From an uncultured virus (IMG/VR IMGVR_UViG_3300023116_006877) (taxonomy: Duplodnaviria > Heunggongvirae > Uroviricota > Caudoviricetes): a stretch of DNA of 64,000 nt. Numbering within the stretch: the stretch's first letter is position 1; each line of letters opens with the position of its first letter. The translations under genes were made by a program, and so were the position numbers. The notes beneath the pieces were generated by a model. That model made no database searches. It was given only the letters and a program-made list of their open reading frames with translations, and was not told where the DNA came from. Positions 12,698 through 56,600 of this stretch are shown in pieces. The DNA lies in IMG/VR virus record IMGVR_UViG_3300023116_006877; one strand, given 5' to 3'.

Positions 12698-13126
12698 TTA
12701 CTCAGATACGATATCGATGTTACCTTTACCAGCCGCGATAGAACCTTGAATGTCAGTTCCTAACGAGTAAGGTACAGATCCTGTAGCACCTGCAGAAGTC
12801 ACATAGTGAACAGTGTTGTTGTAGAATTTTTCTACGTAAGCAACTGTTGAGTCATCTAATGTGATCTGAACACAGAATTCACCGTATCCTGTAGCATTGT
12901 CGTTGGCCAATGTACCTGGAGCAACTGCTTTCAAAAGCATGATTGCTTCTGAAGAGTCTTCCATGTGGATCTTGAATTTTTTAGATCCTCTTTGGTTCAC
13001 GATGTATGCTGTTGTGGAGTCAACTTTTGCTCCACCAAAAGTTCTGTAGGCCGTCACGGCGATTTTAGCAGATGTGTCTCCACCAAAACTTGCTACAAAC
13101 TTGTCTTTTCTTATAGGTCTTCCCAT
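12698..13126 (-). CDS. Hypothetical late (virion?) protein
   Basis: Strong AAGGAG RBS, own late promoter (13227-13232) and terminator. Confidence 0.6.
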   Translation of the reverse strand: MGRPIRKDKFVASFGGDTSAKIAVTAYRTFGGAKVDSTTAYIVNQRGSKKFKIHMEDSSEAIMLLKAVAPGTLANDNATGYGEFCVQITLDDSTVAYVEKFYNNTVHYVTSAGATGSVPYSLGTDIQGSIAAGKGNIDIVSE

Positions 13127-13262
13127 TTTTTTTCTCCTTATAGGAGTCCAATGCCAGTTCTCCTGGCTACGCGGTTGTCATCCGCATAAGTCTTCTACTT
13201 GAGTAAAAGCACGTTTGAACTAACTGTATTTATGGAATTTATAAATTTAAAAATATGCTTAT

Positions 13263-13297
13263 AAAAAAGGGCGATGTCTCCACCGCCCTTGTTTTTT
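13263..13297 (-). terminator. Intrinsic terminator
   Basis: AAAAAAGGGCG...CGCCCTTGTTTTTT. Confidence 0.75.
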
Positions 13298-13299
13298 GA

Positions 13300-13407
13300 T
13301 TATTGTGTAACTTCCGGTGTTGGTTGTCCAGACCAAACCGACCATGCGATGACAACAATGATCGCTATTGCTATCCATGTTTTTTTGTCTTTTAACAGTT
13401 CTTTCAT
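13300..13407 (-). CDS. 35-aa single-pass membrane microprotein (absent from the ORF track)
   Basis: MKELLKDKKTWIAIAIIVVIAWSVWSGQPTPEVTQ; AGGAG RBS upstream; ends right before a terminator. Confidence 0.65.
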   Translation of the reverse strand: MKELLKDKKTWIAIAIIVVIAWSVWSGQPTPEVTQ

Positions 13408-13501
13408 TTTTCCACTCCTGTATTTGTTGTGTGGTGTAGTTGTATAGTCACACCACACAATGAGGTTTCGTATTACTAGATTGTTATATGATTTCTATAG
13501 T

Positions 13502-13735
13502 TTACTTTCTATTATAGATGTGATATAAAATCCAAACTGCCACCAATCCAATCAATCCTTGATCAGAGAAGCCTTGCAGTACGCCCTGGACGTTTCCTAT
13601 TACAGAAACATTCGGCCAGAACGGAATACCTTGACCGTTGAAAAGGATTTCTAAAACAATTCCCAACGCGATCAAACTCACTCCCACGTCGGCAATTCCT
13701 TTTGCCCAATCCTTTATAGTCTTTAGATAATCCAT
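13502..13735 (-). CDS. Small membrane protein (two hydrophobic segments)
   Basis: AGGAGG RBS, late promoter 13782-13787, hydrophobic helices, basic C-terminus. Confidence 0.7.
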   Translation of the reverse strand: MDYLKTIKDWAKGIADVGVSLIALGIVLEILFNGQGIPFWPNVSVIGNVQGVLQGFSDQGLIGLVAVWILYHIYNRK

Positions 13736-13886
13736 GTTGGACCTCCTTTGATTATAGATTCACCTAGGTGAACCTTGCAATTATTTAGAACACAAAATTA
13801 TGAATAAAACTACCAGATTTGGTTTTGCGTTTGTATGGAGTGTATTTTTTTTCCGTTAAACACACAGAAAATGAAAATTAAGTCAT

Positions 13887-13915
13887 AAAAAAAGGGCGAC
13901 CGAAGCCGCCCTTTT
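13887..13915 (-). terminator. Terminator after the major capsid gene
   Basis: Minus strand AAAAGGGCGG-CUUCGG-UCGCCC followed by U7; cUUCGg tetraloop as in T4 terminators. Confidence 0.85.
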
Positions 13916-13936
13916 CAAAATAGATAATCTTAAAGA

Positions 13937-23934: not shown

Positions 23935-24309
23935 ATGCAAGGGAACAGTATAATTAAACATATGTCGGAACGCGAACTAGTTCGAGAACTTAAAGAGACA
24001 ATAAAAGATCTAAGTAAAGACCGCGATATCGCAGAGTCTTCTCTCAAACAAAAAGAATCACGAATCAAGCAGGTGTTGATTAAACTGGAACACGCAACCA
24101 GCGACGTGCAAAGTCTAGGACACAAAATTGGTGAACAGAACAAGGAGATATCCAATCTCCAAATCAAACTGGAAACCAAAGAACGTTTACTAAACGAAGC
24201 ACTGGAAAAAATAAGAGAGCTCAAAAATGAATCAACCGAGGACGACACCCAAGATCAACCCGACGTCGAACAAGAACAACAAGATCAGGAACAACAAGAA
24301 CAAGAGTGA
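23935..24309 (+). CDS. Coiled-coil hypothetical protein
   Basis: Heptad pattern with an acidic/Gln tail. Confidence 0.6.
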   Translation: MQGNSIIKHMSERELVRELKETIKDLSKDRDIAESSLKQKESRIKQVLIKLEHATSDVQSLGHKIGEQNKEISNLQIKLETKERLLNEALEKIRELKNESTEDDTQDQPDVEQEQQDQEQQEQE

Positions 24310-24814
24310 TCCACGCAAAGACGTGCTACATTGGATCAAGGAGTTCGTGGAGGTGCCACACCCGGTGTTCGCAGACCTGCCTCCTTGTCCATATGCCAGA
24401 CAGGCCCGCCTCAGAGGCAAGGTCGAGTTTGTTGAATTGCTGTCAGACCAATCCGATTCACACATACACGATCTGATCGACAAGTTTGACACAGATAAAA
24501 AAGATGTGCTGATAATCATAGCCGACCCCGAACGTTGGACCGGAAGACAAACCAAACAACTGGGAGTCAAGTTGAACAGCATTTATAAAAAACGAGATTT
24601 GGTCATAATGGAAGATCATCCCGACATTGTTGAAAAAGTAAAAAATATCAAACTCAACAACGGAAAATATATCTTACTGTTGGTTCAGAGCAGGACCAAG
24701 TTAAAAAAGTTTGAGGACAAGTTGCGTCAGACCGAGTACTACAAAAATTGGTCTAAGAGTCATCTCGAATCAGTGACGGGAGCATGGCGACATCCTTTAA
24801 AGCCTCGATCCTAG
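24227..24814 (+). CDS. DUF1415-like protein (start uncertain)
   Basis: WIKEFVE...PPCPYARQA, MEDHP, LLLVQ motifs. Confidence 0.55.
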   Translation: MNQPRTTPKINPTSNKNNKIRNNKNKSDPRKDVLHWIKEFVEVPHPVFADLPPCPYARQARLRGKVEFVELLSDQSDSHIHDLIDKFDTDKKDVLIIIADPERWTGRQTKQLGVKLNSIYKKRDLVIMEDHPDIVEKVKNIKLNNGKYILLLVQSRTKLKKFEDKLRQTEYYKNWSKSHLESVTGAWRHPLKPRS

Positions 24815-25526
24815 AATCTCTCTTGCATAGACTCCTGTATAGTTTTTTGTCCTTGCTCCATTCGGTGCCCGTCCACCATTCAAATCCACGATAGTTCGAT
24901 TTATACACGGAACTGACTTCGTACCCGGATCCCATGTAAAAATAAGAAACATTGTGTTCACTGGCCCAGAGTATTTCCATGTCCAGGGTGATCAATGATA
25001 TGGGCACAGTGTTGGCGTGTATCACGGATTCCAACCCAGCGAGATCCAACAGATCGTCACCCAATTGGGCAACGTAGTTGTCCTCTTGATATCGATATCT
25101 TTTCTGTTTGGTGAATCCCACGATGTTGTCCGCTGTACCGATGTAGAACAACATGAATTGATCCCGTTTGTTATAGTGTAGGAAAGGATCGTAATCCTGC
25201 GTAAATTTTTTTCTGGTCATGTATTGTTTATAGATGTGTGGCAGACCCAACAGTTTCACCATCTCGCTGGCATCGATTATTTTGATCTCTATGGGTTGTC
25301 CTTGCCATTCGTGCTTTTTGTACCTAGGTTTGTATTCATCCAGGTTTATGCGTGTGCTACGTGATTGATAAAAAACTTCCTGTTTTTTGATCGGGTGATC
25401 CAATGCCAGCCAACCCTCGCACAGTGCTTCAACTTCTTCAGTGTCATCCACAATTGCCATGGGACGACACAGCACTAGGTCGGTGTGTTCTTGTTTTCCC
25501 AGGGTGTGATCGAACAATAGTTGCAT
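24753..25526 (-). CDS. ATE1/Bpt-like aminoacyl-tRNA-protein transferase (likely start ATG 25526)
   Basis: EALCEGW...FYQSRSTRINL and MEILWASEHNVSYFYMGSGYE..SVYKSNYRGFEWW resemble ATE N- and C-terminal motifs. Confidence 0.6.
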   Translation of the reverse strand: MQLLFDHTLGKQEHTDLVLCRPMAIVDDTEEVEALCEGWLALDHPIKKQEVFYQSRSTRINLDEYKPRYKKHEWQGQPIEIKIIDASEMVKLLGLPHIYKQYMTRKKFTQDYDPFLHYNKRDQFMLFYIGTADNIVGFTKQKRYRYQEDNYVAQLGDDLLDLAGLESVIHANTVPISLITLDMEILWASEHNVSYFYMGSGYEVSSVYKSNYRGFEWWTGTEWSKDKKLYRSLCKRDSRIEALKDVAMLPSLIRDDS

Positions 25527-25547
25527 ATTGTTACTTAACTTCATTAC

Positions 25548-25990
25548 AAAGATGGCTTACAGCCATCTGAAACTTCGCTTACGCTCGTTTCTTTTTTTTA
25601 ATTTACGCTTTACGCAGTAGTTACATTTGCGGAATGACGCATTTATGCGTCGCCTGTGGTAGATGAGCAGTCACAATTCGGCTATTTCTAGCCGAACCGA
25701 CTTGAACCCTGTGGTGAGTTCGCAGTCACTATACATCGCTACCGTAGTTGGGCGGTTGTGCTGTACCCATTTGCTCATTCATTACAACGCGAGCCTACCA
25801 AACCCTTGCATAATAGTTTTTGGTAAACCTGGGGTTTAACTTTTTCTAAGAGCCCCATCATTTTTTGCCGTTTGCATCAAAGGATTCACCTGTCGCTTGT
25901 TAGCCGCATTTCCTTGCTCACTGGTTGCGATGCTATGTTTGCCTAAATATTTTTTTGATTTTGCCTGTCGGATAGATACTGTTGCCTATC
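25548..25990 (-). ncRNA. Putative large structured non-coding RNA
   Basis: No credible ORF, higher GC than other intergenic regions, many hairpins with GAAA/GUAA loops on the minus strand, duplicated 22-nt module. Confidence 0.6.
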
Positions 25991-26047
25991 ACTACTATAT
26001 AACAATCAAATAAAATTCGGTGAACAGTATTGAGTTTAAATACCATC

Positions 26048-26455
26048 ATGCAGTGGATGTTTGAAGGAAAACCGGTCGATGAATTACCAAACGATTGTGT
26101 TGGATTTGTGTACGAGATAACAAATACAACCAATGGTAAGAAATATATTGGCAAAAAATTAGCAAAATTTAAAAGATCTAGACCTCCGTTAAAAGGCAGA
26201 AAAAATAAAAGAAGATTCAAGGTAGATTCCGATTGGAGAGATTATTACGGTTCCAGTGATGCATTGCTGGAAGACATACAAAAAATAGGAAACGATAAAT
26301 TCACCAGGGAGATATTATTTTATTGCAAGAACAAAGGTGAACTATCTTACGTGGAAGCCAGAGAACAGTTTGCTCGAAAGGTGTTGGAGTCTGATGATTA
26401 TTATAACGGACACATCAGAGTGAGAGTACACGGAAGCATGATAAGAAAAAAATAG
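26048..26455 (+). CDS. GIY-YIG family nuclease (likely start ATG 26048)
   Basis: GFVYEITN...KKYIGKK, DWRDYYGSS, FTREIL, YVEAREQF, YYN; TAAATA at 26037-26042. Confidence 0.8.
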   Translation: MQWMFEGKPVDELPNDCVGFVYEITNTTNGKKYIGKKLAKFKRSRPPLKGRKNKRRFKVDSDWRDYYGSSDALLEDIQKIGNDKFTREILFYCKNKGELSYVEAREQFARKVLESDDYYNGHIRVRVHGSMIRKK

Positions 26456-26457
26456 AA

Positions 26458-27894
26458 ATGGAACTGATATTTTTATTTGCCGGAATATTTTTTGGATTGA
26501 TAATTGGCATAATACCGGCCGCGGGAGCCACCACAGGGTTGATAGCACTGTTTGGTGTGATGCCTTATTTTGTATCCGATCCCTACCTGGGCGTGATATT
26601 CTGTGTGGCAGTTGTGGCATCCTCAACAACAGGTGATTCTTTCAGCGGTGTGCTGTTGGGCATACCCGGTGCCAATTCGGCGGCCGCAACCATGGTGGAT
26701 GGATTCCCCATGGCAAGAAACGGCGAAGCATCACGAGCCCTGAGTGCCGCAATCACATCCAGCACCCTAAACGGATTGATATTTGGTTCTCTCACATTTT
26801 TATTTTTGCCTTACTATACCAACATTGTGATGTACATGGGAATACCGGAATTATGGGCGTTGGTGGTTTTGGCTTTTGTCACGGTGGGTTTTTTATCAAC
26901 CAAGAATTACATCAGAAGCATACTAGCCATAATATTAGGTGTCGTGATAGGCCTGGCGGGAGTGGATGCCAACAATGTGCCACGTTTCACAATGGGCTGG
27001 AGATACCTTGAGGATGGAGTACAGATATTGCCGTTCGTGGCAGGACTTTTTGCCATACCAGAATTATGGGAAGGTTGGCGTAAAAGAAAACAGACAGTAG
27101 ATGCCGCGGCATTGAAAGGCAGTTGGTCAGGAATTTTACAAGGGATAAAAGACACTTTACATTGCTGGAAAGATAGCATACGCGGAGGAGCCATAGGTTC
27201 GTTCATAGGACTACTGCCCGGACTGGGTGGAGCAATGGCAGATTGGTTGAGTTATGGTGCCACGGTTGCTTCAAATCCAAACGAAAAATTTGGAAATGGA
27301 AATGTGAGAGGAGTGATAGGAGCAGAGGGAGCCAACAATGCACAGAAGGCCTCGTCCTTTATTCCCACTGTGTTGTTTGGCATACCGGGAGCACCTTTTG
27401 CCGCCATCCTGATGGGATTATTTCTGTACATAGGAATAGATCTGGGATCACCAGACACGTTCTATGATACTCAACTATTTGATAGTATGACATTTGGCTT
27501 CCTGGCAGGAACGATCATCACTGCTTTTATCTGTTATGGATTGGCTTATTTCGCAGGATATATAACAAAATTACCATACATCTATTATTTTCCTTTCATA
27601 ATAGCAATCATTATTTGGGCAACCATGCAGTACACCGGCGGTTGGGAAGATCTTGCCACTTTGGTAATTTTTTCTGCCTTGGGATTAGGATGTAAGTATA
27701 TGAAAATAAGCAGACCGGCGTTGTTGATTGGTTATCTTTTAAGTGATAGAATTTATAACTTGTCCTATCAATTGATATCATTACATTCGGTCGACGAAAT
27801 TTTTCAAAGACCGGTCTTTATTTTTATAATAATCTGTGTTATAATGATAACATGGGTCGGAATAACAAGAAAAAACAGGATAGATTATGCTTAA
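26458..27894 (+). CDS. tctA: Tripartite tricarboxylate transporter large membrane subunit
   Basis: LLGIPGANSAAATMVDGFPMARNGEA and GVIGAEGANNA...IPTVLFGIPG TctA-type signatures; multiple TM helices. Confidence 0.85.
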   Translation: MELIFLFAGIFFGLIIGIIPAAGATTGLIALFGVMPYFVSDPYLGVIFCVAVVASSTTGDSFSGVLLGIPGANSAAATMVDGFPMARNGEASRALSAAITSSTLNGLIFGSLTFLFLPYYTNIVMYMGIPELWALVVLAFVTVGFLSTKNYIRSILAIILGVVIGLAGVDANNVPRFTMGWRYLEDGVQILPFVAGLFAIPELWEGWRKRKQTVDAAALKGSWSGILQGIKDTLHCWKDSIRGGAIGSFIGLLPGLGGAMADWLSYGATVASNPNEKFGNGNVRGVIGAEGANNAQKASSFIPTVLFGIPGAPFAAILMGLFLYIGIDLGSPDTFYDTQLFDSMTFGFLAGTIITAFICYGLAYFAGYITKLPYIYYFPFIIAIIIWATMQYTGGWEDLATLVIFSALGLGCKYMKISRPALLIGYLLSDRIYNLSYQLISLHSVDEIFQRPVFIFIIICVIMITWVGITRKNRIDYA

Positions 27895-44658: not shown

Positions 44659-47600
44659 ATGGCAGATTCTCCAATTAATAGTGTAAAAAATTCTGAAGTT
44701 GTTGTTGACAAACAAGGCATCAGTTATAGAAGATCTATTGCTCATCTTCCAGCATTTTATAGAACAGACACAAACCATAGATTTTTATCTAGCACAGTTG
44801 ATCAATTAATACAGCCGGGAAAACTTGAAAGGCTCGACGGTTTTATCGGAAGAGATTATTCATATACCAGAGAAGCAACGGACAGTTATATAGAAGCATC
44901 AAGCAACGATAGACAAAATTATCAACTTGAACCAACAGTAACATACACAGATAAAGATACATCATCTATCAATCCAGAGGATCAAGTAAAATTTACTGGA
45001 ACATATGACGATTATATTAATCAAATAAAATATCTAGGTGGAAATACTTCAGATCATAGCAGACTAAACAGTGAGGATGTGTATGCATGGAATCCAGCAA
45101 TTGACTATGATAAACTTATCAATTACAGAGAGTATTATTGGTTGCCCGAAGGACCAAATCCAATCACAATATCAACCACCGGACCAAACGCAGTTATAGA
45201 TCTAATAGTATCTCGAAATGGAAAATCGGGTTTTGTATTTCAAAATCTTTCAAATACAGAACTAAATCCAACAATAACATTGTATAAGGGTAATACCTAT
45301 AAGTTTCATGTGGATAATCCGGGTCATCCTTTTTACATAATGACCGAACCTTTCAAGGGAGGAATCTCAGTAGACGGTAGCACTTCTCTACTTTATAACA
45401 ATGGAGTTGGAAATAACGGCATAGATGCCGGAACATTGACATTTACTATTCCTTCTAATGCACCAGATATCTTACATTATCAGTGTGGAAATCACAGTGC
45501 CATGCATGGCATTATAAAAATTCAGGCAGTAGAGGAAACAACTAAAATAGATCCGGAAAAAGAGATCATAGGTACAAAAAATTATACAACACATTCGAAT
45601 GTAAAATTATCAAATGGAATGAAAATTAAGTTTGGTAGCAATGTGATTGACACTACTTTAAAACCGTATGCCAATAGAGAATTTTATGTTGAAGGAGTAG
45701 GACAGTCTATCACACTAACAGACACCACAGACTTATTGCCAACAGGTTCTTATTCTTCTGAAGTGACAGAGTTGTATGATGAAGTTGCATATGCAGATAG
45801 ACCGTATGCGGTAAGTTTTTTTAGAGCAGAAACTCCAGATTATATAACAATCAAAAGAAGTTCCATTGACGGCAACTCGTGGTCCAGATACAACAGATGG
45901 TTCCATAAATCTGTCATAGAAGAGACGGCCACTGCATTGGGTTATACAGCATCTCTAGATCAAGATAGCAGAGCAAAAAGACCAATCATAGAGTTCGACT
46001 CGGGATTGATTTTATATAACCATGGAACCAAAGCAAAAAAATCGGTTTCGTTGGTCGACACAGTGACAACTGACGTGTTTTCAGAGATAGTTAACAAATT
46101 AGGATATGTCATCGACGGTGTAGAGATACAGGAAGGAATGAGAATACTGATAGCCAATGATAAAGATCCCTTAATTAATAACAAGATTTATAAAGTTTCA
46201 TTCGTGAAAGTACAAGGTCAAGACGTGACCAGTTTAAATTTAACCGAAGATTCAGACACAAATCCTATCGACGGTGAAGCAGTAACAGCCGAGTATGGCA
46301 GAAACCATCAAGGAAAAACATTTTTTTATAGCAGTTCAACGAAAAAATGGCAAACTGGACAAAACAAAACCAAATTAAATCAATCTCCTTTGTTTGACCT
46401 CTATGATAGTAATCATGTTTCTTTTTCGAACACAACAACATATCCCAATTCAACATTTTCTGGTGCAACATTATTTTCTTATAAAACAAGTGATTCTGCG
46501 GTGTTGGATTCTGTGCTGGGATTAAAAGTAAAATACAAAACAATTAACAATGTCGGAGACATACTTTTCACATCAGATCTAGCGACTAATAGTTTTGATT
46601 ACAATATAAACAACACAATTTACACTAAATCTTTTAAGACAGGACACACACACGTACAGAACGAATATAACAAACATCGTAGTCAAACCAATTGGAAGAA
46701 ATTAAAAGCAAAAAGTAAACAGCGTGTGGTGAGAACTTTTGTAGTGACACCGGAAGAAAAAGTTTTCTTTCCTATAGATTTTTACAAGAATAGTAATTCG
46801 TTAGTCGACCTTGAAGTCACAGTCTCAGTGAATAACAATGTTAAAAAAATAACATCTGATTTCACTTTGGTAAATGGTACAACAAACAAATATATTAAAT
46901 TCAACAATGCTTTGAATGTGAACGATATCGTGTTGGTTCATGCGTCGAGCTCAGCAAAAAAAATTGATGGAAAAGGTTTATATGAGATTCCCGAAAATAT
47001 TTCGATAAATCCACTCAACGAGCAGATATCTGATTTTACATACGGACAGATATTATATCATTTAAATGATATAAATGAAAAAAATAATGAGATCATTGGA
47101 CAAACTCCGGGATCGAGCAATCTTAGAGATCTTCCAGGTTTTAGAGCGTTGGGAGGATCGATTATCCAACACCAATCGCCTTTGCCGCAGGCTGTCTTTT
47201 CTCTCATAGACGAAAACTCAAACGCTATCAGAGCCATAGAATATTGTTCTCGAGAATATCAAAGTTTCAAAGAAAATTTTCTTACATTCAATGTTGGAAC
47301 AACATATAATCAAAATGCCGCAGATAGAGTAGATGAAATTTTAAAAGGGATGGCCGGCGAAAAAAACAATTCGTTTCCTTTCTTTTATGAGGACATGGTG
47401 GGTTATGGAGCAAATGTTTCAACAAGAACTTATACAGTCAACGATCCCACAATTGTGGATTACGCCATTGATTCTCTTTTTGATATTTCAAAAACTAGTA
47501 ATAGGGCAGTGTATCTGTATAAAAATGATACACAATTATTAGTGGGAACAGACTACACTTTCAGCACAACCGACGATAGTGTTAAAATTTTAACAACACT

Positions 47601-50600
47601 TTCAACAGGTGATGTTATCAAAATAAAAGATTACACTGATACAACAGGAAGTTTTATACCTCCAACACCGACAAAACTTGGAATGTATCCAAAATACAAA
47701 CCAGAGATCATACAAGATAACACATATATTGAAACAAAAAATGTGATAGTGGGACATGATGGTTCAAAAACTATTGCTTATAATGATTACAGAGATGATA
47801 TTTTGCTAGAACTAGAAAAAAGAATATACAATAATTGCAAAATAAATCACAATAATAATTTACTTAAAGAAACAGATGTAAGGCCTTCAGCCTTTATGTC
47901 AACTAGTGAATATACCACAAAAGAAATTGATGATATCATGAGCAGAGATTTTTTTGCTTGGGCAGGTAAAAATTCAGTTGATTATCAAAAAAATAATTTT
48001 TACGACAATTCAAATCAATTTACATGGAATTACAGTCAGTCGAAAGATACAATCAATGAACAATTCCTTCCAGGACACTGGAGAGGTATTTTCAAACTAT
48101 TTTATGACACAGATAGACCACATATTGCTCCATGGGAAATGTTGGGTTACAGTGAAAAACCTACGTGGTGGGAAGAAACATATGGACCAGCACCATATAC
48201 ATCAGGAAATACATTGCTGTGGACCGACCTAGCAAACGGGTTTGACAATTCGAACAATTCCGCGAATGCTCGATTTATTAGATCTAACTTGTTAAATTAT
48301 CTACCGGTCGATGATACTGGAGCATTAAAATCTCCAGTCGCTATAGGATTAGTTTCTGAGTATACCTACAACGGAACAACTTCCAAATGGAAATTTGGTG
48401 ACCAGGCACCTGGAGAAACAGCATGGAGAAGAAGTTCTCAGTATCCTTTCTCTATTATAAAAATGTTGGCATTGACAAAACCTGCTAAATTTTTTGGAAA
48501 TTATTTAGACAACAGTAGATTAATCGCCACAGTGGAAGGTAATTTATATAATTCCGAAACAGAAACAATCCAAACTCTTAAAAATGTAAAATATCATTTA
48601 GAAACAATTACAGATACGATAACTGGAACCACGACAAGATATAGCACGGCTGGTTATCAACCTCTTGTCGTAAACTATTTGATTAGTCAAAATTTAGACC
48701 CTGCAAAGTTCTTTTATGATAAAATGAAAAACTTAAATGTTCAGTTAGGATACAAACTAGGAGGATTCACTGACAAAGATAATTTAAAAATATTGACAGA
48801 CAGTATAAGTCCAGGATCAACTGCGGGGTCTCAGTTTATACCTGAGGAAAACTATAAACTCTTGTTTAGATCCAGTAATCCGGTAGAGTCCTATGATTAT
48901 TCAGGCGTTCTTGTGGAACTCAATAGTGCAACAGGCATTGACGGAAGCACACTTGAAGGGGGGTATAAAGTTATAGGTTACAATACTGCCAAACCGTACT
49001 TCGATGTTTTTCTTCCGGTAAAAAATGGCAAAAAATATTTATTATCGTCTGAAAATGAACAAGTGGTTGCCTATCAGATATTCGATAATAAGAAAACTAT
49101 TATACCTTATGGAACAGTGTTCAAAAACAAACAAGAAGTTGTTGATTTTTTATTAGGATATGGAAAATATTTAGAGTCTCGAGGATTTATTTTTGATAAG
49201 TTTTCAAATGAATTAAAAGAGATATCCAATTGGGAATTATCGGCAAAAGAATTTTTATATTGGACCACGCAAGGATGGGCACCCGGTTCTGCCATCACAT
49301 TAAGTCCGGGAGCAGACGGTTTCAGCCTCGAAACCAACAACAGCGTAATCAACAAATTAAACGACACCACTGGAGAATACAGTGTATTGAATTCTGCTGG
49401 TAAGAAAATACCAAAATCATTTATCAGTACAAAACGTATAGGTAACACATTTGAAATGTCAACAAAAGGAACGTTAGATGGAATATACAATGTGTCTATG
49501 AATGCTGTTCAGAAAGAACACATACTGTTATTTGATAACATTACAGTATTTTCTGATATAATTTTTCAACTACAAACAGGTTTCCGACAACAGCGTTTAA
49601 AATTAATTGGTTGGAAAACAGCCAATTGGAATGGAGATTATTACGCACCGGGGTTTGTTTTTGATGAGGCCTATGTAAGTATGTGGACAGCAAATACCGA
49701 TTATCAAATCGGAGACACTGTCGAGTACAATGCAGGCTTCTATGTTGCCAAGAGCAATCATAATGCAGGTAATGAATTCACAGCAGAGTATTGGATCAAA
49801 AAAGATGAAAAACCTGCTCCACAATTAATTCCCAACTTTGATTATAAAATTTCTCAATTTAATGACTTCTATAATTTGGAAACAAACAATTTTGATGAGT
49901 CACAACAGGGATTGGCACAACACTTAATAGGATATCAATCAAGAACGTATCTAGACAATCTATTCACAAACGATATCTCACAATATAAATTTTATCAAGG
50001 GTTCATCAAAGAAAAAGGTACACAAAACGCAATCAATAAATTAACAAAGGCGAAGTTTTATGATGAAAATATTGATCTAAATGTGTATCCGGAATGGATG
50101 ATCAAGTCTGGAGAATTTGGTAATCTTAATGCGACACAAAGTTTGCAGATCTCAATGCCACAAAATACATTTAAAAATAACATACAAAGTATAGAGTTCA
50201 CAAATAACAGTTTAGAAAACCTGAACTGGACTAAATCTGCCAGAGTAAATAGAAATGAGTTTTATTCTACTCCTATAGAGTACGAGGTAGCAAACACATT
50301 TGATTATTTCGATTACAATCAAGAAGGTTACGACAGAAAAACAGTACAAAAATTTCCAGTTGCAGGATTTCCTAGATTGTCCGATGTGCAACATACTGCT
50401 TTTAGCATAAACGATCTTTTTAATCTGGATATAACACAAATCAACAACAATGATTTGGTTTGGATAGCGAAAAAACAAAACAACGATTGGGACGTACAAC
50501 GAATTACTTTCGCAAATCTAAAAATAGTGGCAGTCAGAGCAGTCAATGATAATACAGAATTAGAAATAACGTTTGATAAAACTCATACATTTAGCGTGAA

Positions 50601-53600
50601 TGACATACTGGCCATCAAAAACAGTTCACGTGACACAATGAATGGTATCTATGCTGTGTCCACAATTCCAGCAAATAATAAACTAACTTTTGCATTCGAT
50701 ACTCCTGAACAATTTATATCTACAGATATATTGGCAGACGAATCAACGTTGTCAATTTTTGGACTTGTTTATAAATTTATCAGTGTCAGAATATCAAGCA
50801 TGGATAATGTTAACTCGTTGATCTCTTATGATGAATACAGAGACGATGATGTGACAAACGAACGACCAGGCGACATTGTATTCGTAGACAACGAAAATTC
50901 AAAATGGAAAATATATGAAAAAACTGATCCTTACAGTTCGAATGTTTTATCATCACCGACAGTGTCAGCAAATCAGGAGTTCGGCCACAGAATAGTTTCA
51001 CGTGAAGATGGAAGATATATTGCCGTGTCTGCTCCTCAATCCGGACAAGGTACTGTGAATTTCTTTGTGAGAAGAGAATCAAATTCTACGTCGACATTTA
51101 ATTTAACAAGTAGTTTTACAACGACACAAGGTGCAGATAATACCACAAGGCTGGGTGATAGTTTAACTATGAGTTCTGATGAGAACTTTGTTGTCGCAGG
51201 TGCACCACAAGCCAATATTAGACACATAAGTGACAGTAGCATTTATAATGATGCTGGATTAATATCAATTTATAATTGGAACACAACAACAAAAGTATAC
51301 GAAGAACAATTAACGATAACACCGGAGCAAGAAGGTAGTACCAGCATTGCCAATTGGAATTTTGGTTGGGCAACAGCATTGGCAGAACCGATAGAAAATT
51401 CTACGTTATCAACAACTCCTAAATATCTTTTTGTAACTGTTCCAGGGCATGACCTTGACACAGGATCAGTATTTTTATATAAATGGCAAAACACAGATGA
51501 CAGCACCTCATGGACATTAACAACAACATTGACCAGTACAGATGCCGATGCAGGCCAAAGATTTGGACACAGTATTGCGGTAAACGACAATGCCGACATA
51601 ATTGCTATAGGATCTAAAAATCCAGAAACTGCAGGTAAAGTTGAAATATTCAAAAGAACTTCAGAAAATACATTTATTCATAGACAAACATTGACAGGAG
51701 TCAGTGCTGACGGTAGCAGTAATGATACTCAATTTGGAGATTCGTTGGAGATGAGCAGTGACGGGACTACTTTGATTGTGTCGGCTCCCGGCATAGACGA
51801 TGGTGTTGTGGCAAACACAGGCGCAGTTTATTATTATAAATGGAACGATCAGTCGTCATCAGAAACTTATACTTTAAAACAAACCATTAAATTGCCTAAC
51901 ACAGGTATAAACAATGTGAGTTTTGGATCAACTGTTAAAATCAATAAAACAGGTGACCGATTATTGATTGGTGCTGAAAGTTTTAGTACACCTACTGAAA
52001 TGAAATTTGATTTTGGTGCAACTACATTTGATTTACAGGACACGGCCATCGTTGAAAAGAATAGATCATCCGGAGCAACATTTACGGCAACAAAATATGA
52101 TTCGGAATTTGTTATTGATGATAAATTAACGACCACAACATTGAGCAGTGATGATCGTTTTGGCAGTGGATTGGTCATAAACGACAATGTAATTTTGGTT
52201 GGATCTTCTCATGATGATGCATTATCGACAGATGGTTCAACGGTACAAGTTGATAGAGGTACAGTAACAGTTTACGATTATAAAACCAAGGGATCTTACG
52301 CTTGGAAAGTTTTAGAAACAGAAAGCACACTCATAGATAATAGAAAAATACAATCGTCTTTTATTTTTGATAGTTCCACAAACAAAATAATTGATTATTT
52401 GAATTACTATGATCCGGTAAAAGGCAGAATTCTAGGTGTCGCCGACAGAGAAATAAATTTCAAATCTGAATGGGATCCAGCAACATATAATATTGAATCA
52501 ACAGAACAATTGATTAGTGTTGATAGGAAACAAGCATGGGGAGAAGAACACATAGGCGAAGTATGGTGGGATTTATCTAAAGTAAGATGGATATGGTACG
52601 AGCAAGGTAGCCAGGAATATAAATCTAAAAACTGGGGAAGAATGTTTCCGAACAGCAGTATTGATATTTACGAATGGGTAGAGTCAACATTGTTACCATC
52701 GGAATGGTCTGTAAGAGCAGACACACCAGCAGGCTTGGCATTGGGCATATCAGGACAGCCTTTAGATAACAATGACCAGCGTGTGACTTTGAAACAAAAA
52801 TACAATCCTCAGTCAGAAACTTTTGTGAACTATTATTATTATTGGGTAAGGAATTCGGTATTTTTACCAGAGTTAAACAAACAGGTCACGGAAAGAAAAA
52901 ATTCAACAGCATATATTTCGAGAGTCATAGCAGATCCTTTATCATCTGGAATAAAATATTTTGGAATAACTTCTTCCAACTCGTTGGTTACTTTGAACGT
53001 AAAAAACAGTCTGGTACTTAATAACACAGTCTTGAACATTAATTATAAAAATAATTTAAATGATGGAGACAATCACACGGTATGGAAATTATTTAAAGAG
53101 GGAGATAAATTAGATAGACCAACAGAGGAAATTGAAAGAAAATGGTGGGATAGTTTAACAGGATCTGATATCTATGGAAACCAAATTCCTGATCTATCGT
53201 TACCTTTGAGTCAGAGATACGGAAATTCTATAAGACCTAGACAAAGTTGGTATGTCAACAGATTAAATGCTGTGCAGGAAATAATACAATATACAAATTC
53301 AATATTAACACAATATCAAATTGCCAACAGTATCAATTATAAAAATCTAGATTCGCAAGATCCGGAACCTACTAGTACTTCGGGAGAATGGGATACGGCA
53401 GTCGATACATATGCAGATTTAACTTACATCAATACCAATGACATCAGCGGAGTATTGAATGTGTTGGTAAGAAGCGATGAAGTCAACAGTAAAAATCTTT
53501 GGGCGGTTTATCAATGGTCGGGAACTGAGTGGAACAGAAACAAAGTTCAAACTTATAAAACAAGCAACTATTACAGTTATGTAGATTGGTATGCTTCTGG

Positions 53601-56600
53601 TTATTCGGTTGATAGCATTATTGATCAAACTGTCACGTATCAATATCAATTAGACACTCTATCGGTAGATGTGGGAAAAATTATTAAAGTCACTCTAGCA
53701 GATACCGGAGGATGGAAACTTTTTGTAAAAACAAATACAGGATGGGATAATATCGCCACCCAAAACGGAACAATACAATTTTCTAGAGCTCTGTATGACT
53801 ACACAGTTGAAGCATCGGGATTTGCTGGTTTGGACACATATGATGGAAACTTCTTTGACGATGAACCAACAATAGAATTAAGAAAAATATTACAGGCATT
53901 GAGAGATGATATTTTCATAGGTGATTTATTAGTTGAGTACAATAACATATTTTTTATAGGTTTAAGAAAAGTTTTAGAAGAACAAATATATGTTGATTGG
54001 TTGGCAAAAACATCATTTATAAATGTAACTAACTTTTTAAGACCGTTAGATCAAAGAAAAACTTACAAAATTGGAACAGAGAATTATGTGGAATCATACA
54101 TCAATGAAGTCAAACCTTTCCACACAAAAATTCGAGAATATAAATTGGGTTACACAAAGTTAGACACACAACAAGGAACAAATACCGACTTTGATTTACC
54201 AGCAATTTATGATGGTTCTGTCATAAGAAACTTATCATTGACAAATGAAGCAGATCTGACATTGTTAAATTCTTATCCATACAACGAATGGAAAAACAAT
54301 TATAAAAAATATGTCAGTTCTATAAGAGTTATCAATGGCGGTTCGGGTTATATAACTGCCCCAACAATCACATTGGTGGGCGGCGCGACAACAACCACAG
54401 GACCTTTCCAAGTGAACGGATTGAGCCTGTCAGGACCAACATCAGGAACATCAGGATATTTCTATCCGGCCTATACCGCGGTGGCAGATGCCAATCTAGC
54501 AGACTCACAATCGGGTGGCACAGGATTAAGTGATGAATTTACATTCCAGGAATACCCAGGTATAAAATTTTACATTCCTCAAACTGGTCGATCGGTTTCA
54601 CAGGCATCAGCGAGTTCTTTATACAACACATATGCGACAGCGGACACACTACAAGCGACTGCTAGGGCAGTCATATCCGGAGGAAAAGTGACAAGGATCG
54701 ATGTTTTAACACCGGGATCAAATTACACAGCAACACCAACAGTGGTGATCACCGGCGGCGGCACGAACAACAACACTCCGTCATCATCAGCAAAAGCATA
54801 TGCAGTATTAAAAAATGATGCAGTGAGAGATATAGAAACAACAATTAAATTTGACAGGGTACAAAGAACAGGAAATGTTTTGATTTGGACCAAGGATACA
54901 AGTTATTCTGTTGGTGATCTATTAAGGTATGAGAATGATTTTTACAAAGTTGAAACAGCCTTTACAAGTTCTATAAAATTTAGCGAAGGATTAAACAACT
55001 TAATAAAACTCAGAGGAGATGAATCATACATCACAGCGGCAGAAAGAACATTAGGTCTATACGCACCACAATCAGGAATGCCAGGAAACGAGTTATCTCA
55101 GGTCATGACAGGAGTGGATTATGGTGGAGTGATGGTCACAGGTTTAGCATTTGACAAATCACAAGGATGGGACGTTGACGACTGGTATAATCAAACCTGG
55201 GACACTTACGGATTGGCACAGAGTGTTAGATTCTACGGTGATGGCAGTACAATCGTATTCAATTTTGAAATGGCACCACAACCAACTGATGTCTACACAG
55301 TGTATTTCACTGACATCAGTGATTCCACAGTGGGAACTGGTTCTATTATTGCTCAAGCAAATAAAAAACGTGTGAGACAATTCAAGACAGTGATCAGAGG
55401 TGATGGTTCAACAACATCATTTACAATTAGAGGCGATGACGGCTTGCCAGCAAGTGCAGATACTTTGATCGAGTTGATTCCTTTTGATTCGGATGGAGTG
55501 TTAACTCCCACAGACGATGACACATTAGACAGCATAGTGTCAGGCGGAAATTTAAAATCGGTATTGGGCCAATCGCCTAGTGACATAATCCTAGAAGGCG
55601 ATGCTTTCATAACTCCGGAAACCAGTTACGCACCAGAAGAAAATTTACCAGGTAGTATTTTTGATACAGTAGACATCAAAGTTTACACAGCACCAGAATC
55701 AGGTGTGCCTTTTGTGATGCAAAAAAATTACATCGCGAACGGAACAACAGACACATTCGATATAGGACAATATCCGGGTACACAAGATTCGGTTATAGTA
55801 TCTATAAACGGTGTGGTAAAAAGACTTGGAACGGATTACACAGTTGACGTGGGAAACAAAACAATAACTTTAAATTCAACACCCAACAATGGTGAAACGA
55901 TCAGTATCAGAAGTTTTGCTATTTCTGGAGTGAACTACATGGTGCTGGACACTTTCACTGGTGACGGATCAACATCTAGTTTTTCAACATCAACAAGAAA
56001 TGATTTCGAATCCAAAGAAATACAATATAATACGTCACACACAGGTGACGGTAGCACAAAAGTTTTCGCAACAAGTCCAGACGTCAGTGCACCACAATAT
56101 GCCAGTGATTTGACAATTTTCATAGATGGTGTGATATTAGATAGAGTCAACGGAGCCACAATAAATTACACAGTTGATGGAACAACATCGTTTGTTACAC
56201 TAAAAGACGCACCGTCTGATGGTGCCAGCATCATCATACGACAATCAGTCAGTGCAACGACCAGCCAGTTATATGTTACGATAGACGGAACACCAACAAC
56301 AAATTTCACTACAACTGTTAATAATAAATTGATAACAGTTGATTTACATAGTGGTGATGGATCAACAGCAAATCCACCTGCATCTGGAAAATTGGTACAG
56401 ATAGCGTCATTCAACAAACCATCAACATCGGGTAGAGCATATTACGAATTACGAACACAGTCATTGACATATGACGGAAGCACAGTGAGACTTGGATTGA
56501 CTTATCCACCAGGGGCAGTAGGACCTTATGACAGTTTGACAATGGTGGAGTTAGACGGAAAAATATTGAGAGGTCCGGATAACAGATATTACATAGGAGA

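What the first reader, a model, noticed from the sequence alone, without database searches (positions are those of the whole stretch)
25548..25990. Candidate ~440-nt highly structured phage ncRNA
Seen: the only long ORF-free gap in a densely coding genome, richer in GC than other intergenic regions and packed with stems. On the minus strand: UUCGGCUA-GAAA-UAGCCGAA (25696-25677), GACGCA-UAAA-UGCGUC (25651-25636), GAAAC-GA-GC-GUAA-GC-GAA-GUUUC (~25591-25569), AGAUGGC-UGUAA-GCCAUCU (25568-25550), UACCAAA...UUUGGUA, GGGG...CCCC and GCUC...GAGC. GNRA loops occur on the minus strand, which argues for an RNA transcribed in that direction. A weak sigma70-like -10 sits near 25994-26001. I cannot match it to tRNA, tmRNA, RNase P or group I/II intron consensus. 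Inference: an unrecognised large phage RNA, comparable in size to known large bacterial/phage RNA classes; a structured ssDNA replication signal is the alternative.
Basis: partly seen in the sequence, partly recalled or inferred. Interest (0 to 1): 0.85.

Follow-up and report, generated by a model that had tools for sequence, protein, structure and literature searches.

The report
New large structured RNA of giant phages
The gap holds a gene for a roughly 395-base, intricately folded RNA that hundreds of uncultured giant aquatic phages keep more faithfully than their neighbouring proteins, that matches no catalogued RNA family, and that carries two always-identical short "address" sequences whose partner is unknown.

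Summary
Window 25550-25944 (minus strand) encodes a ~395-nt structured RNA.

- **Conservation:** homologues in >=120 IMG/VR and >=118 metagenome contigs (both scans capped) are 64-100% identical, while the adjacent protein is only 48-76% identical.
- **Structure:** on 79 distinct sequences my 85-pair model, including an 8-bp pseudoknot, is 97.1% paired. 45 pairs show compensatory changes, and 0 of 500 shuffles reach this. G-U pairs and GNRA loops fix the strand.
- **Known families:** no Rfam 15 family matches, ARAGORN finds nothing, and no GenBank phage matches.
- **Not a leader:** the RNA usually sits between a divergent SegE-like GIY-YIG gene and a co-oriented ATE/Bpt-like transferase gene. 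In some phages it stands alone between opposite-strand genes.
- **Twin boxes:** two 7-nt boxes 55 nt apart are identical at their first six positions in 151 of 155 sequences. They switched in concert at least 9 times and have no internal partner.

Best reading: a new trans-acting phage RNA class whose twin boxes recognise an external partner. Function is unproven and transcript ends are unmapped.

The parts
25550..25944 (-). The whole conserved structured RNA (about 395 nt; 5' AGGCAAACAUAGCAUC ... AGAUGGCUGUAAGCCAUCU 3'). Numbering used in the report: ref position = 25968 minus window coordinate.
   Evidence: blastn and nhmmer homologues; alignments A1 and A3; 85-pair structure 97.1% paired
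25874..25933 (-). 5' domain. P1 (GCAUC/GAUGC) encloses P2 (AAGGA/UCCUU) and the small P2a hairpin.
   Evidence: Helices 1-3. P2 pair at columns 65-101: AU 36, GC 27, CG 8
25830..25857 (-). P3/P3a hairpin (UGGGG..CCCCA with inner CUU-AGAAA-AAG)
   Evidence: Helices 4-5 (columns 127-154: AU 41, GC 34). The same hairpin with other letters occurs in distant classes
25792..25829 (-). P4 long hairpin. Its 8-nt loop (25807-25814) is the 5' strand of the pseudoknot.
   Evidence: Helix 6: 13 pairs, 11 with changes on both sides
25728..25735 (-). 3' strand of the pseudoknot (UGUAUAGU), pairing with the P4 loop AUUAUGCA
   Evidence: Mutual information. Helix 7: 8 pairs, 5 with double changes, 98.6% paired. 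In 168 sequences, 156-238 is CG 79 / UA 78. Class B keeps it as UUUGAA x UUCAAA
25749..25769 (-). P7 hairpin with invariant 11-nt loop ACAGCACAACC (19-mer GGGUACAGCACAACCGCCC at 25750-25768). The loop may pair with the invariant GUUGU at 25784-25788.
   Evidence: Invariant in 79 of 79 and in all distant classes. Stem pair at columns 218-238 is CG 56 / UA 22. The loop-GUUGU pairing never varies, so it is untested
25709..25715 (-). Twin box 1 (ACCACAG), within repeat unit R1 (25704-25728, GUGACUG..CUC-box)
   Evidence: Direct repeat D1
25674..25699 (-). P10 hairpin with GAAA loop, between the two repeat units
   Evidence: Helix 14: 11 pairs, 99.5% paired, 4 with double changes
25654..25660 (-). 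Twin box 2 (ACCACAG), within repeat unit R2 (25651-25673, GUGACUG..UCU-box)
   Evidence: the first six letters equal box 1 in 151 of 155 distinct sequences
25592..25651 (-). Variable region: optional hairpin GACGC-AUAAAU-GCGUC (25636-25651), GCGUAA repeats and an A-run. Shortened or missing in some homologues.
25550..25591 (-). 3' domain. P12 (GAAAC-GA-GC-GUAA-GC-GAA-GUUUC) is followed directly by P13 (AGAUGGC-UGUAA-GCCAUCU). P13 ends 5 nt before the AUG at 25544.
   Evidence: Helices 15-17. Both helices are kept with other letters in classes A' and B
24753..25544 (-). Neighbour, not part of the RNA: 263-aa relative of arginyl/leucyl-tRNA-protein transferases (ATE_C-like)
   Evidence: 8 of 16 homologues hit Pfam ATE_C, best E 6.3e-9; profile against PDB arginyltransferases, E 5e-4
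26048..26455 (+). Neighbour, not part of the RNA: 135-aa SegE-like GIY-YIG nuclease gene, divergent from the RNA's 5' end
   Evidence: Pfam PF19835 E 2e-38. Same arrangement in 108 of 125 informative rows

Best explanation
Window 25550-25944, read from the minus strand, is a gene for a stand-alone, roughly 395-nt, highly structured non-coding RNA. It belongs to a family that is not in Rfam and is carried by uncultured giant T4-like aquatic phages.

SHOWN. The RNA folds into a 5' domain (P1-P2), two hairpins (P3, P4) and a pseudoknot between the P4 loop and a strand about 80 nt downstream. It also has a hairpin with an invariant 11-nt loop, two repeat units (R1, R2) flanking a GAAA-capped hairpin, a variable region and a 3' two-hairpin domain.

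INFERRED. It acts in trans as a folded RNA (scaffold, guide or ribozyme), not as a leader of the next gene. The two 7-nt boxes in R1 and R2 are kept identical to each other while changing between lineages. I read them as specificity elements that base-pair with two copies of one external sequence. The neighbouring nuclease genes are best read as homing endonucleases parked beside a very conserved target. The ATE-like gene is a frequent but dispensable neighbour.
For: - **Conservation above the neighbours.** All 56 loci that have a close relative of the 263-aa gene and upstream DNA carry the element, at 75-100% nucleotide identity. The protein is 48-76% identical apart from three near-identical loci. 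Example: L055, protein 48%, RNA 82%.
- **Structure.** RNAalifold finds 73 pairs, 23 of them compensatory, on 33 sequences. My 85-pair model on 79 distinct sequences gives 97.1% paired cells and 45 pairs with double changes. Its covariation score is 0.323 against 0.154 for shuffles (0 of 500 reach it) and 0.04-0.075 for slid partners.
- **Pseudoknot.** It was found by mutual information and holds in 168 distinct sequences. It also holds, with different letters, in class B.
- **Not a leader.** 20 rows have the RNA, at least 400 nt of downstream DNA and no ATE-like gene. In L106, L088 and L110 both neighbours lie on the opposite strand. A 196-kb contig with the RNA has no ATE-like gene, while 4 of 4 control contigs do. 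In L081 and L144 the ATE-like gene is divergent, on the 5' side.
- **Twin boxes.** Box triplets are identical in 78 of 79 sequences. They take six states and change at least 9 times on a tree built without the box columns. The first six letters are identical in 151 of 155. Classes A' and B have other twin sequences, again identical within a molecule. No covarying Watson-Crick partner exists inside the RNA.
- **Not a known family.**
- **Not coding.**
- **Phage-specific.** In one genome per species of 185,579 prokaryotes the invariant 19-mer occurs 7 times. Four are homologues on short MAG contigs. Three show no other similarity, which fits the roughly 4 chance hits I calculate for that database size.
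Against: - No transcript has been shown. Only assembled contigs of RNA libraries were available, and these cannot give ends, strand or level and may hold DNA.
- In 107 rows the ATE-like start codon follows the last hairpin by about 2-33 nt on the same strand. The two are therefore probably co-transcribed there, and a leader role in those phages is not excluded.
- The partner of the twin boxes is unknown. A sequence-specific protein dimer would explain their identity equally well.
- Helices P5 and P9 and the loop-GUUGU pairing have no covariation support.
- The pattern scans found no promoter or terminator.
Confidence: 0.62

Rival explanations
1. Cis-acting 5' leader: the structure is a long regulatory untranslated region (riboswitch-like or T-box-like) that controls translation or read-through into the ATE-like transferase gene starting 5 nt after the last hairpin.
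For: The ATE-like gene lies on the same strand within about 2-33 nt of hairpin P13 in 107 of the 178 rows. These include repeat fetches of some contigs, and 41 of the other rows lack downstream DNA. There is no room for a separate promoter. The 8-nt tail after P13 is less U-rich where the gene follows (mean 2.4 T) than where it does not (3.5 T). Codon-like twin triplets sit beside a tRNA-dependent enzyme.
Against: 20 rows have room but no ATE-like gene. In L106, L088 and L110 the flanking genes are on the other strand. Four loci have 700-2100 nt inserted between RNA and gene. The gene is divergent in L081 and L144. A 196-kb contig has the RNA but no ATE-like gene. Distant ATE-like genes (26-32% identity, L059-L070) lack the RNA. 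Rfam T-box and riboswitch models do not match. An earlier agent's note on another genome also found the gene not tied to the RNA.
Confidence: 0.12
2. tRNA-docking scaffold: the two identical boxes act like T-box specifier sequences and hold two host tRNAs of one kind, for use by the neighbouring aminoacyl-tRNA-dependent transferase or against tRNA-directed host defence.
For: The neighbour is ATE_C-like or Fem-like. Box triplets ACC/ACU, AGU/AGC and GCC read as Thr, Ser and Ala codons followed by an invariant A. The box is 7 nt long, the length of an anticodon loop. Five contigs of these phages, 564 kb in total, encode no tRNA.
Against: This is pattern reading only. Full complementarity to an anticodon loop would need C at position 37 for the AG-type boxes, which by my recall tRNAs do not have. 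Classes A' and B carry boxes (ACAUGAU, AGAUGAU) that fit no single register. The RNA occurs without the transferase. No T-box match.
Confidence: 0.1
3. DNA-level element: the conservation reflects a homing-endonuclease target, a divergent promoter/operator region or a replication origin, and the stems are incidental.
For: A SegE-like GIY-YIG gene abuts the 5' end in 108 of 125 informative rows, and a PD-(D/E)XK nuclease gene takes that place in L091. By my recall of the T4 map, the locus is broadly syntenic with the T4 region that holds segE, ori(uvsY) and the baseplate hub genes. AGGCAA repeats lie upstream.
Against: DNA sites do not produce 45 compensatory pairs, strand-specific G-U pairs, GNRA/UNCG loops or a covarying pseudoknot. 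The nuclease association is better explained as endonuclease genes parked beside a conserved RNA gene.
Confidence: 0.05
4. Hidden protein-coding gene or a chance structure.
For: Stop-free stretches of 43-119 codons exist on the opposite strand. The single-sequence fold z-score is only -2.
Against: Homologues read the same invariant nucleotides in different frames. 1542 of 1761 gap runs are not multiples of three, and variability shows no three-base period. Covariation is far beyond shuffles.
Confidence: 0.01

Closest known systems
GOLLD and ROOL RNAs (large ornate RNAs, often phage- or prophage-borne, function unknown)
   Same: A large, pseudoknotted, phage-carried RNA. It is conserved beyond its neighbouring genes, stands alone and was found by comparative genomics in environmental sequence.
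   Different: No Rfam match to either family. It is smaller (about 395 nt, against the roughly 580-800 nt I recall for them). It has twin identical boxes and occurs in giant T4-like aquatic phages. Whether it multimerises is untested. What I know of GOLLD/ROOL cages comes from the abstract seen in the search listing (10.1101/2024.12.08.627333) and from recall.
T-box leader RNAs
   Same: A short single-stranded sequence that varies between members while the scaffold stays fixed, as a specifier does. It sits beside a gene of tRNA-dependent chemistry.
   Different: No RF00230 match. There are two identical boxes, not a specifier plus a UGGN bulge. It is not always upstream of a gene. I saw no antiterminator/terminator alternative.
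Two-piece tmRNA of Melnitz-like and pelagimyophage relatives
   Same: An RNA of about 350-400 nt with pseudoknots, encoded by marine myophages (PMC9004378, passages read).
   Different: ARAGORN and the Rfam tmRNA models find nothing. There is no tRNA-like end pairing and no conserved tag frame. The genomic place also differs: Melnitz ssrA lies upstream of the transcription coactivator.
T4 tRNA gene cluster with the SegB homing endonuclease
   Same: A free-standing GIY-YIG endonuclease gene sits next to highly conserved RNA genes. This comparison is recalled, not tested here.
   Different: Here the RNA is not a tRNA, and the nuclease gene is nearly fixed beside it (108 of 125 rows). Cleavage of the RNA gene by the nuclease is untested.

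Membership tests
Any Rfam 15 family (4227 models, including GOLLD, ROOL, OLE, HEARO, raiA, tmRNA, RNase P, group I/II introns, T-box and riboswitches) | Covariance-model match at or near the family's gathering score | tested here: not met
   Whole window at gathering: only freshwater-2, at 13124-13208. Region 25300-26250 at E<=10: only CRISPR-DR24 at 16.8 bits against a 35-bit gathering score. 20 diverse homologues at E<=10: two noise hits. L072-L078: none.
tmRNA (one-piece or permuted) | tRNA-like domain (acceptor stem, T-arm, CCA end) plus a tag reading frame | tested here: not met
   ARAGORN finds no tRNA or tmRNA in the 64-kb window. The 5' and 3' ends do not pair in the supported fold. 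The sequence after box 2 is variable, with no conserved frame.
Group I intron (often carrying GIY-YIG genes in T4-like phages) | Insertion within a host gene with flanking exons, and a P3-P9 catalytic core | tested here: not met
   The element lies between two start codons (25544 minus, 26048 plus). No RF00028 match. The nuclease gene is outside the RNA and on the other strand.
Cis-regulatory leader (riboswitch or T-box type) | Always directly upstream of, and co-oriented with, the regulated gene | tested here: not met
   20 rows have room and no downstream ATE-like gene. Opposite-strand neighbours occur in L106, L088 and L110. The gene is divergent in L081 and L144.
Structured non-coding RNA (generic) | Base pairs maintained by compensatory substitutions beyond what phylogeny and composition give | tested here: met
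   45 of 85 pairs have double changes. 97.1% of cells are paired against 88.3% in shuffles and 32-37% when slid. 0 of 500 shuffles reach the observed values.
Box C/D-type kink-turn RNA | RUGAUGA and CUGA boxes forming a kink-turn | tested here: not met
   AUGAUGA-like boxes occur only in the distant classes A' and B. The window's boxes are ACCACAG.
Expressed stable RNA | A discrete transcript with defined ends on the minus strand | not testable with these tools
   Only Logan contigs of RNA libraries were available. They give no ends, strand or usable depth.

The most novel reading that the evidence does not exclude
The RNA is a programmable twin-guide RNA. Its fixed scaffold presents two identical 7-9-nt guides that dock two copies of one nucleic-acid target. 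The target could be two host tRNAs, or two sites on a host or phage RNA or DNA. The RNA would do this for a protein partner encoded beside it (the domain-only GIY-YIG nuclease or the aminoacyl-tRNA transferase) or for its own catalysis. The guides are re-set in concert as phage lineages change target or host.
Probability: 0.12. Interest if true: 0.95.

Novelty: categorically new. Interest (0 to 1): 0.82.

Why it matters
Large, highly conserved RNAs of unknown function are rare. In the past each such class has opened new biochemistry: ribozymes, riboswitches, guide RNAs and RNA cages.

This one has three features that make it worth pursuing:
- It is abundant in marine and freshwater sequence, with hundreds of distinct copies.
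- It belongs to giant phages that nobody has cultured.
- It is better conserved than the phage's own proteins.

Its paired 'address' boxes changed together at least nine times. That gives a concrete, testable handle on what it binds. The alignment and structure reported here are enough to build a covariance model, to annotate these phages, and to design probing, crosslinking and cryo-EM experiments.

A caution: a 2023 catalogue of about 10,000 candidate viral RNAs may already list part of it. I could not search two of its large supplementary files.

Tried and rejected
1. **Partner of the twin boxes inside the RNA.** Mutual information finds only the other box. Hand-checked candidates (GUGAG at ref 47-51, GGUAG at ref 225-229) do not covary.
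2. **Partner near the RNA.** The reverse complement of each locus's own box occurs at scattered, non-homologous places in different genes.
3. **Box sequence elsewhere in the window.** CTGTGGT occurs 14 times against 7.8 expected, and 4 of 100 shuffles reach that. Two of the 14 are the boxes themselves. By my reading of strands, nearly all the rest place ACCACAG, not its complement, in the mRNA.
4. **Upstream motifs.** AGGCAAAC and AAAWTTYC are not enriched in the window.
5. **Local stems around the boxes.** GAACU/GGUUC and CUG/CAG are poorly or not supported.
6. **Terminator role of P13.** There is only a weak trend in tail U-content, and the scan found none.
7. **Metatranscriptomes.**
   - 18 RNA-labelled runs hold part of the stretch.
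   - Contigs of 3 of the 4 runs laid touch 25550-25944 (X6 only at 25646-25689), and X8 covers only the ATE-like gene.
   - In X13 the contigs over 25615-25980 carry word depths of 84-418, against 4-26 on the flanks. The tool warns that contig depth cannot rank regions, and relatives pile up on the conserved part.
   - No run covered 25432-25614 or 25981-26041.
   - I draw no conclusion on expression level or ends.
8. **GenBank phages.** There is no similarity to the RNA at E<=1. The 1.8-kb query matched only four Melnitz records, over the GIY-YIG gene.
9. **Literature.** Four full-text searches and passages of PMC9004378, PMC7029224 and PMC10690425 gave no description of this RNA. Two searches of the PMC10690425 supplements for ATE_C, SegE and six contig ids found nothing, but files 1 and 2 were too large to be searched.
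10. **The 263-aa protein alone.** It hits nothing in Pfam at E<=10 or in the PDB. Only its relatives and their profile do.
Full report
**1. What is in the window**

The finding lies between two divergent genes.
- On the minus strand a 263-aa ORF starts at 25544.
- On the plus strand a 135-aa SegE-like GIY-YIG gene starts at 26048 (Pfam PF19835, E 2e-38). A TctA transporter gene follows it.
- The surroundings are those of a T4-like myovirus: baseplate hub, tape-measure-like and SbcC-like genes, and a 4731-aa ORF.
- The only GenBank phages with any similarity to a 1.8-kb query are four Methylophilales phage Melnitz records. They are 69% identical over the GIY-YIG part only.

On its own the gap is unimpressive.
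- The fold is only about 2 sd better than shuffles on either strand.
- The consensus scan finds no promoter or terminator.
- Rfam finds nothing at the gathering score or at E<=10, apart from a 16.8-bit CRISPR-repeat noise hit.
- ARAGORN finds no tRNA or tmRNA in the whole window.

**2. Relatives change the picture**

I used the 263-aa protein as an anchor and fetched 71 IMG/VR loci.
- Of these, 56 carry the gap sequence at 75-100% nucleotide identity. That is every locus that has a close relative of the gene (>=48% amino-acid identity) and any upstream DNA.
- The protein itself is only 48-76% identical outside three near-identical contigs. In L055, for example, the protein is 48% identical and the RNA 82%.
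- Conservation starts sharply at AGGCAAACAUAGCAUC (window 25944). It ends with the hairpin at 25550.

An invariant 19-mer from the element was used to scan the collections.
- It occurs in at least 120 IMG/VR contigs and at least 118 metagenome contigs.
- It occurs only 7 times in one genome per species of 185,579 prokaryotes. Four of these are true homologues on short MAG contigs, probably binned phage DNA. Three show no other similarity, which fits the roughly 4 chance hits I calculate for that database size.
- A profile search found 178 matching rows in the window plus the 198 loci then held. Some contigs had been fetched twice.
- There are 79 distinct full-length sequences, 64-100% identical to the window's near-identical reference copy L003, and 168 distinct cores in the enlarged set.
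- No GenBank phage record matches the RNA at E<=1.
- CheckV completeness values for the carrying contigs (196,581 nt = 55%; 138,715 nt = 39%) imply genomes of about 350 kb.

**3. It is a folded RNA on the minus strand**

- RNAalifold on 33 sequences gave 73 pairs, 23 with compensatory double changes.
- Mutual information on 79 sequences added long-range pairs.
- I wrote an 85-pair model with 17 helices and counted it on alignment A3.

| Measure | Observed | Shuffled 3' letters | Partners slid 1-3 columns |
|---|---|---|---|
| Cells forming a standard pair | 97.1% | 88.3% | 32-37% |
| Pairs with changes on both sides | 45 | 30.4 | 11-19 |
| Cells with changes on both sides | 600 | 143.8 | 33-75 |
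| Covariation score | 0.323 | 0.154 | 0.04-0.075 |

None of the 500 shuffles reached any observed value.

The pseudoknot is the strongest single feature.
- The 8-nt loop of the long P4 hairpin (AUUAUGCA, 25807-25814) pairs with UGUAUAGU (25728-25735) about 80 nt downstream.
- Five of its 8 pairs change on both sides.
- In 168 sequences, pair 156-238 is CG 79 / UA 78, and pair 159-235 is AU 124 / GC 23 / GU 20.

The strand is fixed by the many conserved G-U pairs, which would be A-C on the plus strand, and by GAAA, GUAA and UACG loops.

Support varies by helix.
- A hairpin with an invariant 11-nt loop (ACAGCACAACC) is identical in every homologue of every class.
- That loop could pair with the equally invariant GUUGU upstream. 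Pairs that never vary cannot be tested.
- Helices P5 and P9 likewise lack covariation support.
- The hairpin GACGC..GCGUC lies in a variable region and is optional, present in 55 of 79.

**4. It is not a protein gene**

- Stop-free stretches exist on the opposite strand. Homologues read the same invariant nucleotides in different frames.
- 1542 of 1761 alignment gap runs are not multiples of three.
- Variability shows no three-base period.

**5. More distant classes keep the architecture with other letters**

Loci that share the 19-mer but little else fall into further classes: A', B and C.
- Class B keeps the P3/P3a hairpin and a P4 hairpin.
- The loop of that class B P4 hairpin (UUUGAA) is complementary to UUCAAA just before repeat R1. 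That is the same pseudoknot in the same place.
- Class B also keeps the R1-hairpin-R2 arrangement and both 3' hairpins (UUGCU..AGCAA, AGAUGUC..GACAUCU).
- I read this from the alignments by eye, not from a statistical test.

**6. The twin boxes**

The window has a direct repeat. It consists of GUGACUG, 6-7 nt, then ACCACAG, at 25704-25728 (R1) and 25651-25673 (R2), either side of the GAAA hairpin.

| Observation | Result |
|---|---|
| Box triplet, both boxes, 79 sequences | ACC/ACC 52, GCC/GCC 14, AGU/AGU 6, AGC/AGC 5, ACU/ACU 1; one exception is a misaligned class A' row |
| Changes of the twin state on a tree built without the box columns | at least 9 |
| First six box letters identical, enlarged set | 151 of 155 |
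| All seven letters identical, enlarged set | 138 of 155 |
| Class A' twin sequences | ACAUGAU or ACGUGAU |
| Class B twin sequences | AGAUGAU or AGAUGAG |

- The spacers between GACUG and the box stay different in R1 and R2. Gene conversion is therefore an unlikely cause (my inference).
- The best covarying partner of each box column is the same column of the other box. No Watson-Crick partner appears inside the RNA, in the flanks or enriched in the window.
- Two sequences forced to stay equal while free to change are what one expects of specificity elements that meet two copies of one outside partner. That partner could be a nucleic acid, or less easily a sequence-reading protein dimer. This is my main inference and it is untested.

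**7. Neighbours**

The 263-aa protein has no Pfam hit itself.
- Eight of 16 relatives hit ATE_C, with a best E of 6.3e-9.
- Their profile finds solved arginyltransferases at E 5e-4.
- Language-model look-alikes carry ATE_C or Fem-type GNAT domains.
- It is therefore a relative of the aminoacyl-tRNA-protein transferases.

Its position relative to the RNA varies.
- It follows the RNA on the same strand within about 2-33 nt in 107 rows.
- It lies 700-2100 nt away in 4 rows.
- It is absent despite at least 400 nt of room in 20 rows. In L106, L088 and L110 the RNA then sits between genes of the opposite strand.
- It lies divergent on the 5' side in L081 and L144.
- A 196-kb contig with the RNA has no such gene, while four control contigs do.
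- An earlier agent's note on another genome (e1-5374584) also says this gene travels with a small Cys-Pro protein and not with the RNA. I did not test the Cys-Pro part.

So the RNA is not simply that gene's leader, although the two are probably co-transcribed where adjacent.

A SegE-like GIY-YIG gene lies divergently within 150 nt of the RNA's 5' end in 108 of 125 informative rows.
- In class B it can be co-oriented (L116) or replaced by a PD-(D/E)XK nuclease gene (L091).
- I read these as homing endonuclease genes parked next to an exceptionally conserved sequence. This resembles SegB in the T4 tRNA cluster, a comparison I recall and did not test.
- Five contigs of these phages, 564 kb in total, have no tRNA gene.

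**8. Expression**

- Eighteen runs recorded as RNA hold part of the stretch.
- Only assembled contigs could be laid, and contigs of 3 of the 4 runs touch the RNA.
- This shows the sequence is present in metatranscriptome libraries. It does not show that it is transcribed, from which strand, or with what ends. Contig depths are not usable for ranking.
- This is the main gap in the case.

**9. Comparison with what is known**

- No Rfam 15 family matches the window's copy or 20 diverse homologues.
- It is not the two-piece tmRNA reported in Melnitz-like phages, which ARAGORN detects there and which lies elsewhere (PMC9004378, passages read).
- It works most like the large phage-associated RNAs of unknown function (GOLLD, ROOL). 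It shares with T-box leaders the idea of a variable recognition sequence in a fixed scaffold. It fails the membership tests of both.
- Four full-text searches and three papers gave no description of it.
- A catalogue of 10,006 candidate viral RNAs (PMC10690425) may include part of it. Its searchable supplements hold neither ATE_C/SegE nor six of these contig ids, but two large files could not be searched.

**10. Verdict**

| Claim | My probability |
|---|---|
| A real, widespread, strongly structured RNA family new to the catalogues | about 0.95 |
| It acts in trans as a stand-alone RNA | about 0.7 |
| The twin boxes pair with an external nucleic acid | about 0.4 |

The function is unknown. 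The twin boxes give a direct experimental handle on it.

Noticed in passing
window 13124-13208 (minus), within the gap 13127-13936: A full-length freshwater-2 RNA match (73.4 bits, gathering score 49.9) sits at the edge of a second, longer stretch without an ORF of 90 aa or more. That stretch holds only short ORFs of up to 77 aa. It could hold further non-coding elements.
   Followed up: partly
window 24753-25544 (minus): A phage-encoded, very divergent relative of arginyl/leucyl-tRNA-protein transferases (ATE_C-like). It has no Pfam hit itself, but 8 of 16 relatives hit ATE_C. Its 3' end overlaps a convergent 195-aa ORF (24227-24814, phrog_28122) by about 60 nt.
   Followed up: partly
window 26458-27894 (plus): A complete TctA-family tricarboxylate transporter gene (Pfam E 2e-91) in a phage genome, directly after the GIY-YIG gene. 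It is a possible auxiliary metabolic gene.
   Followed up: no
window 44659-58854 (plus): A single ORF of 4731 aa among structural-looking genes. It was not examined.
   Followed up: no
window 25937-25985 (minus) and the same place in many loci: Two or three copies of AGGCA(A/C)A, spaced about 20 nt apart, lie just upstream of and at the RNA's 5' end (for example ACCAGGCAAAC..N13..AGGCAAAC in many relatives). They could be promoter or operator elements of the divergent region. The motif is not enriched elsewhere in the window.
   Followed up: partly
L116, L185, L102, L148, L091, L086, L197 (class B); L081, L144, L082, L115 (class A'): In these distant classes the twin boxes contain (A/G)UGAUG(A), which resembles the C box of box C/D RNAs, each preceded by (A/G)UGA. 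This hints at kink-turn-like motifs that the window's own copy lacks.
   Followed up: partly
handles G002, G007, G008 (contigs of L135, L018, L046): CheckV completeness of 55%, 39% and 27% for 197, 139 and 96 kb implies genomes near 350 kb. Five such contigs, 564 kb in total, hold no tRNA gene by Rfam RF00005.
   Followed up: partly
L091:1733-2239 (minus): A phage PD-(D/E)XK endonuclease gene (PF24608, E 1e-23) occupies the place beside the RNA that a GIY-YIG gene holds elsewhere. This is as expected if different homing endonucleases use the same conserved target.
   Followed up: no
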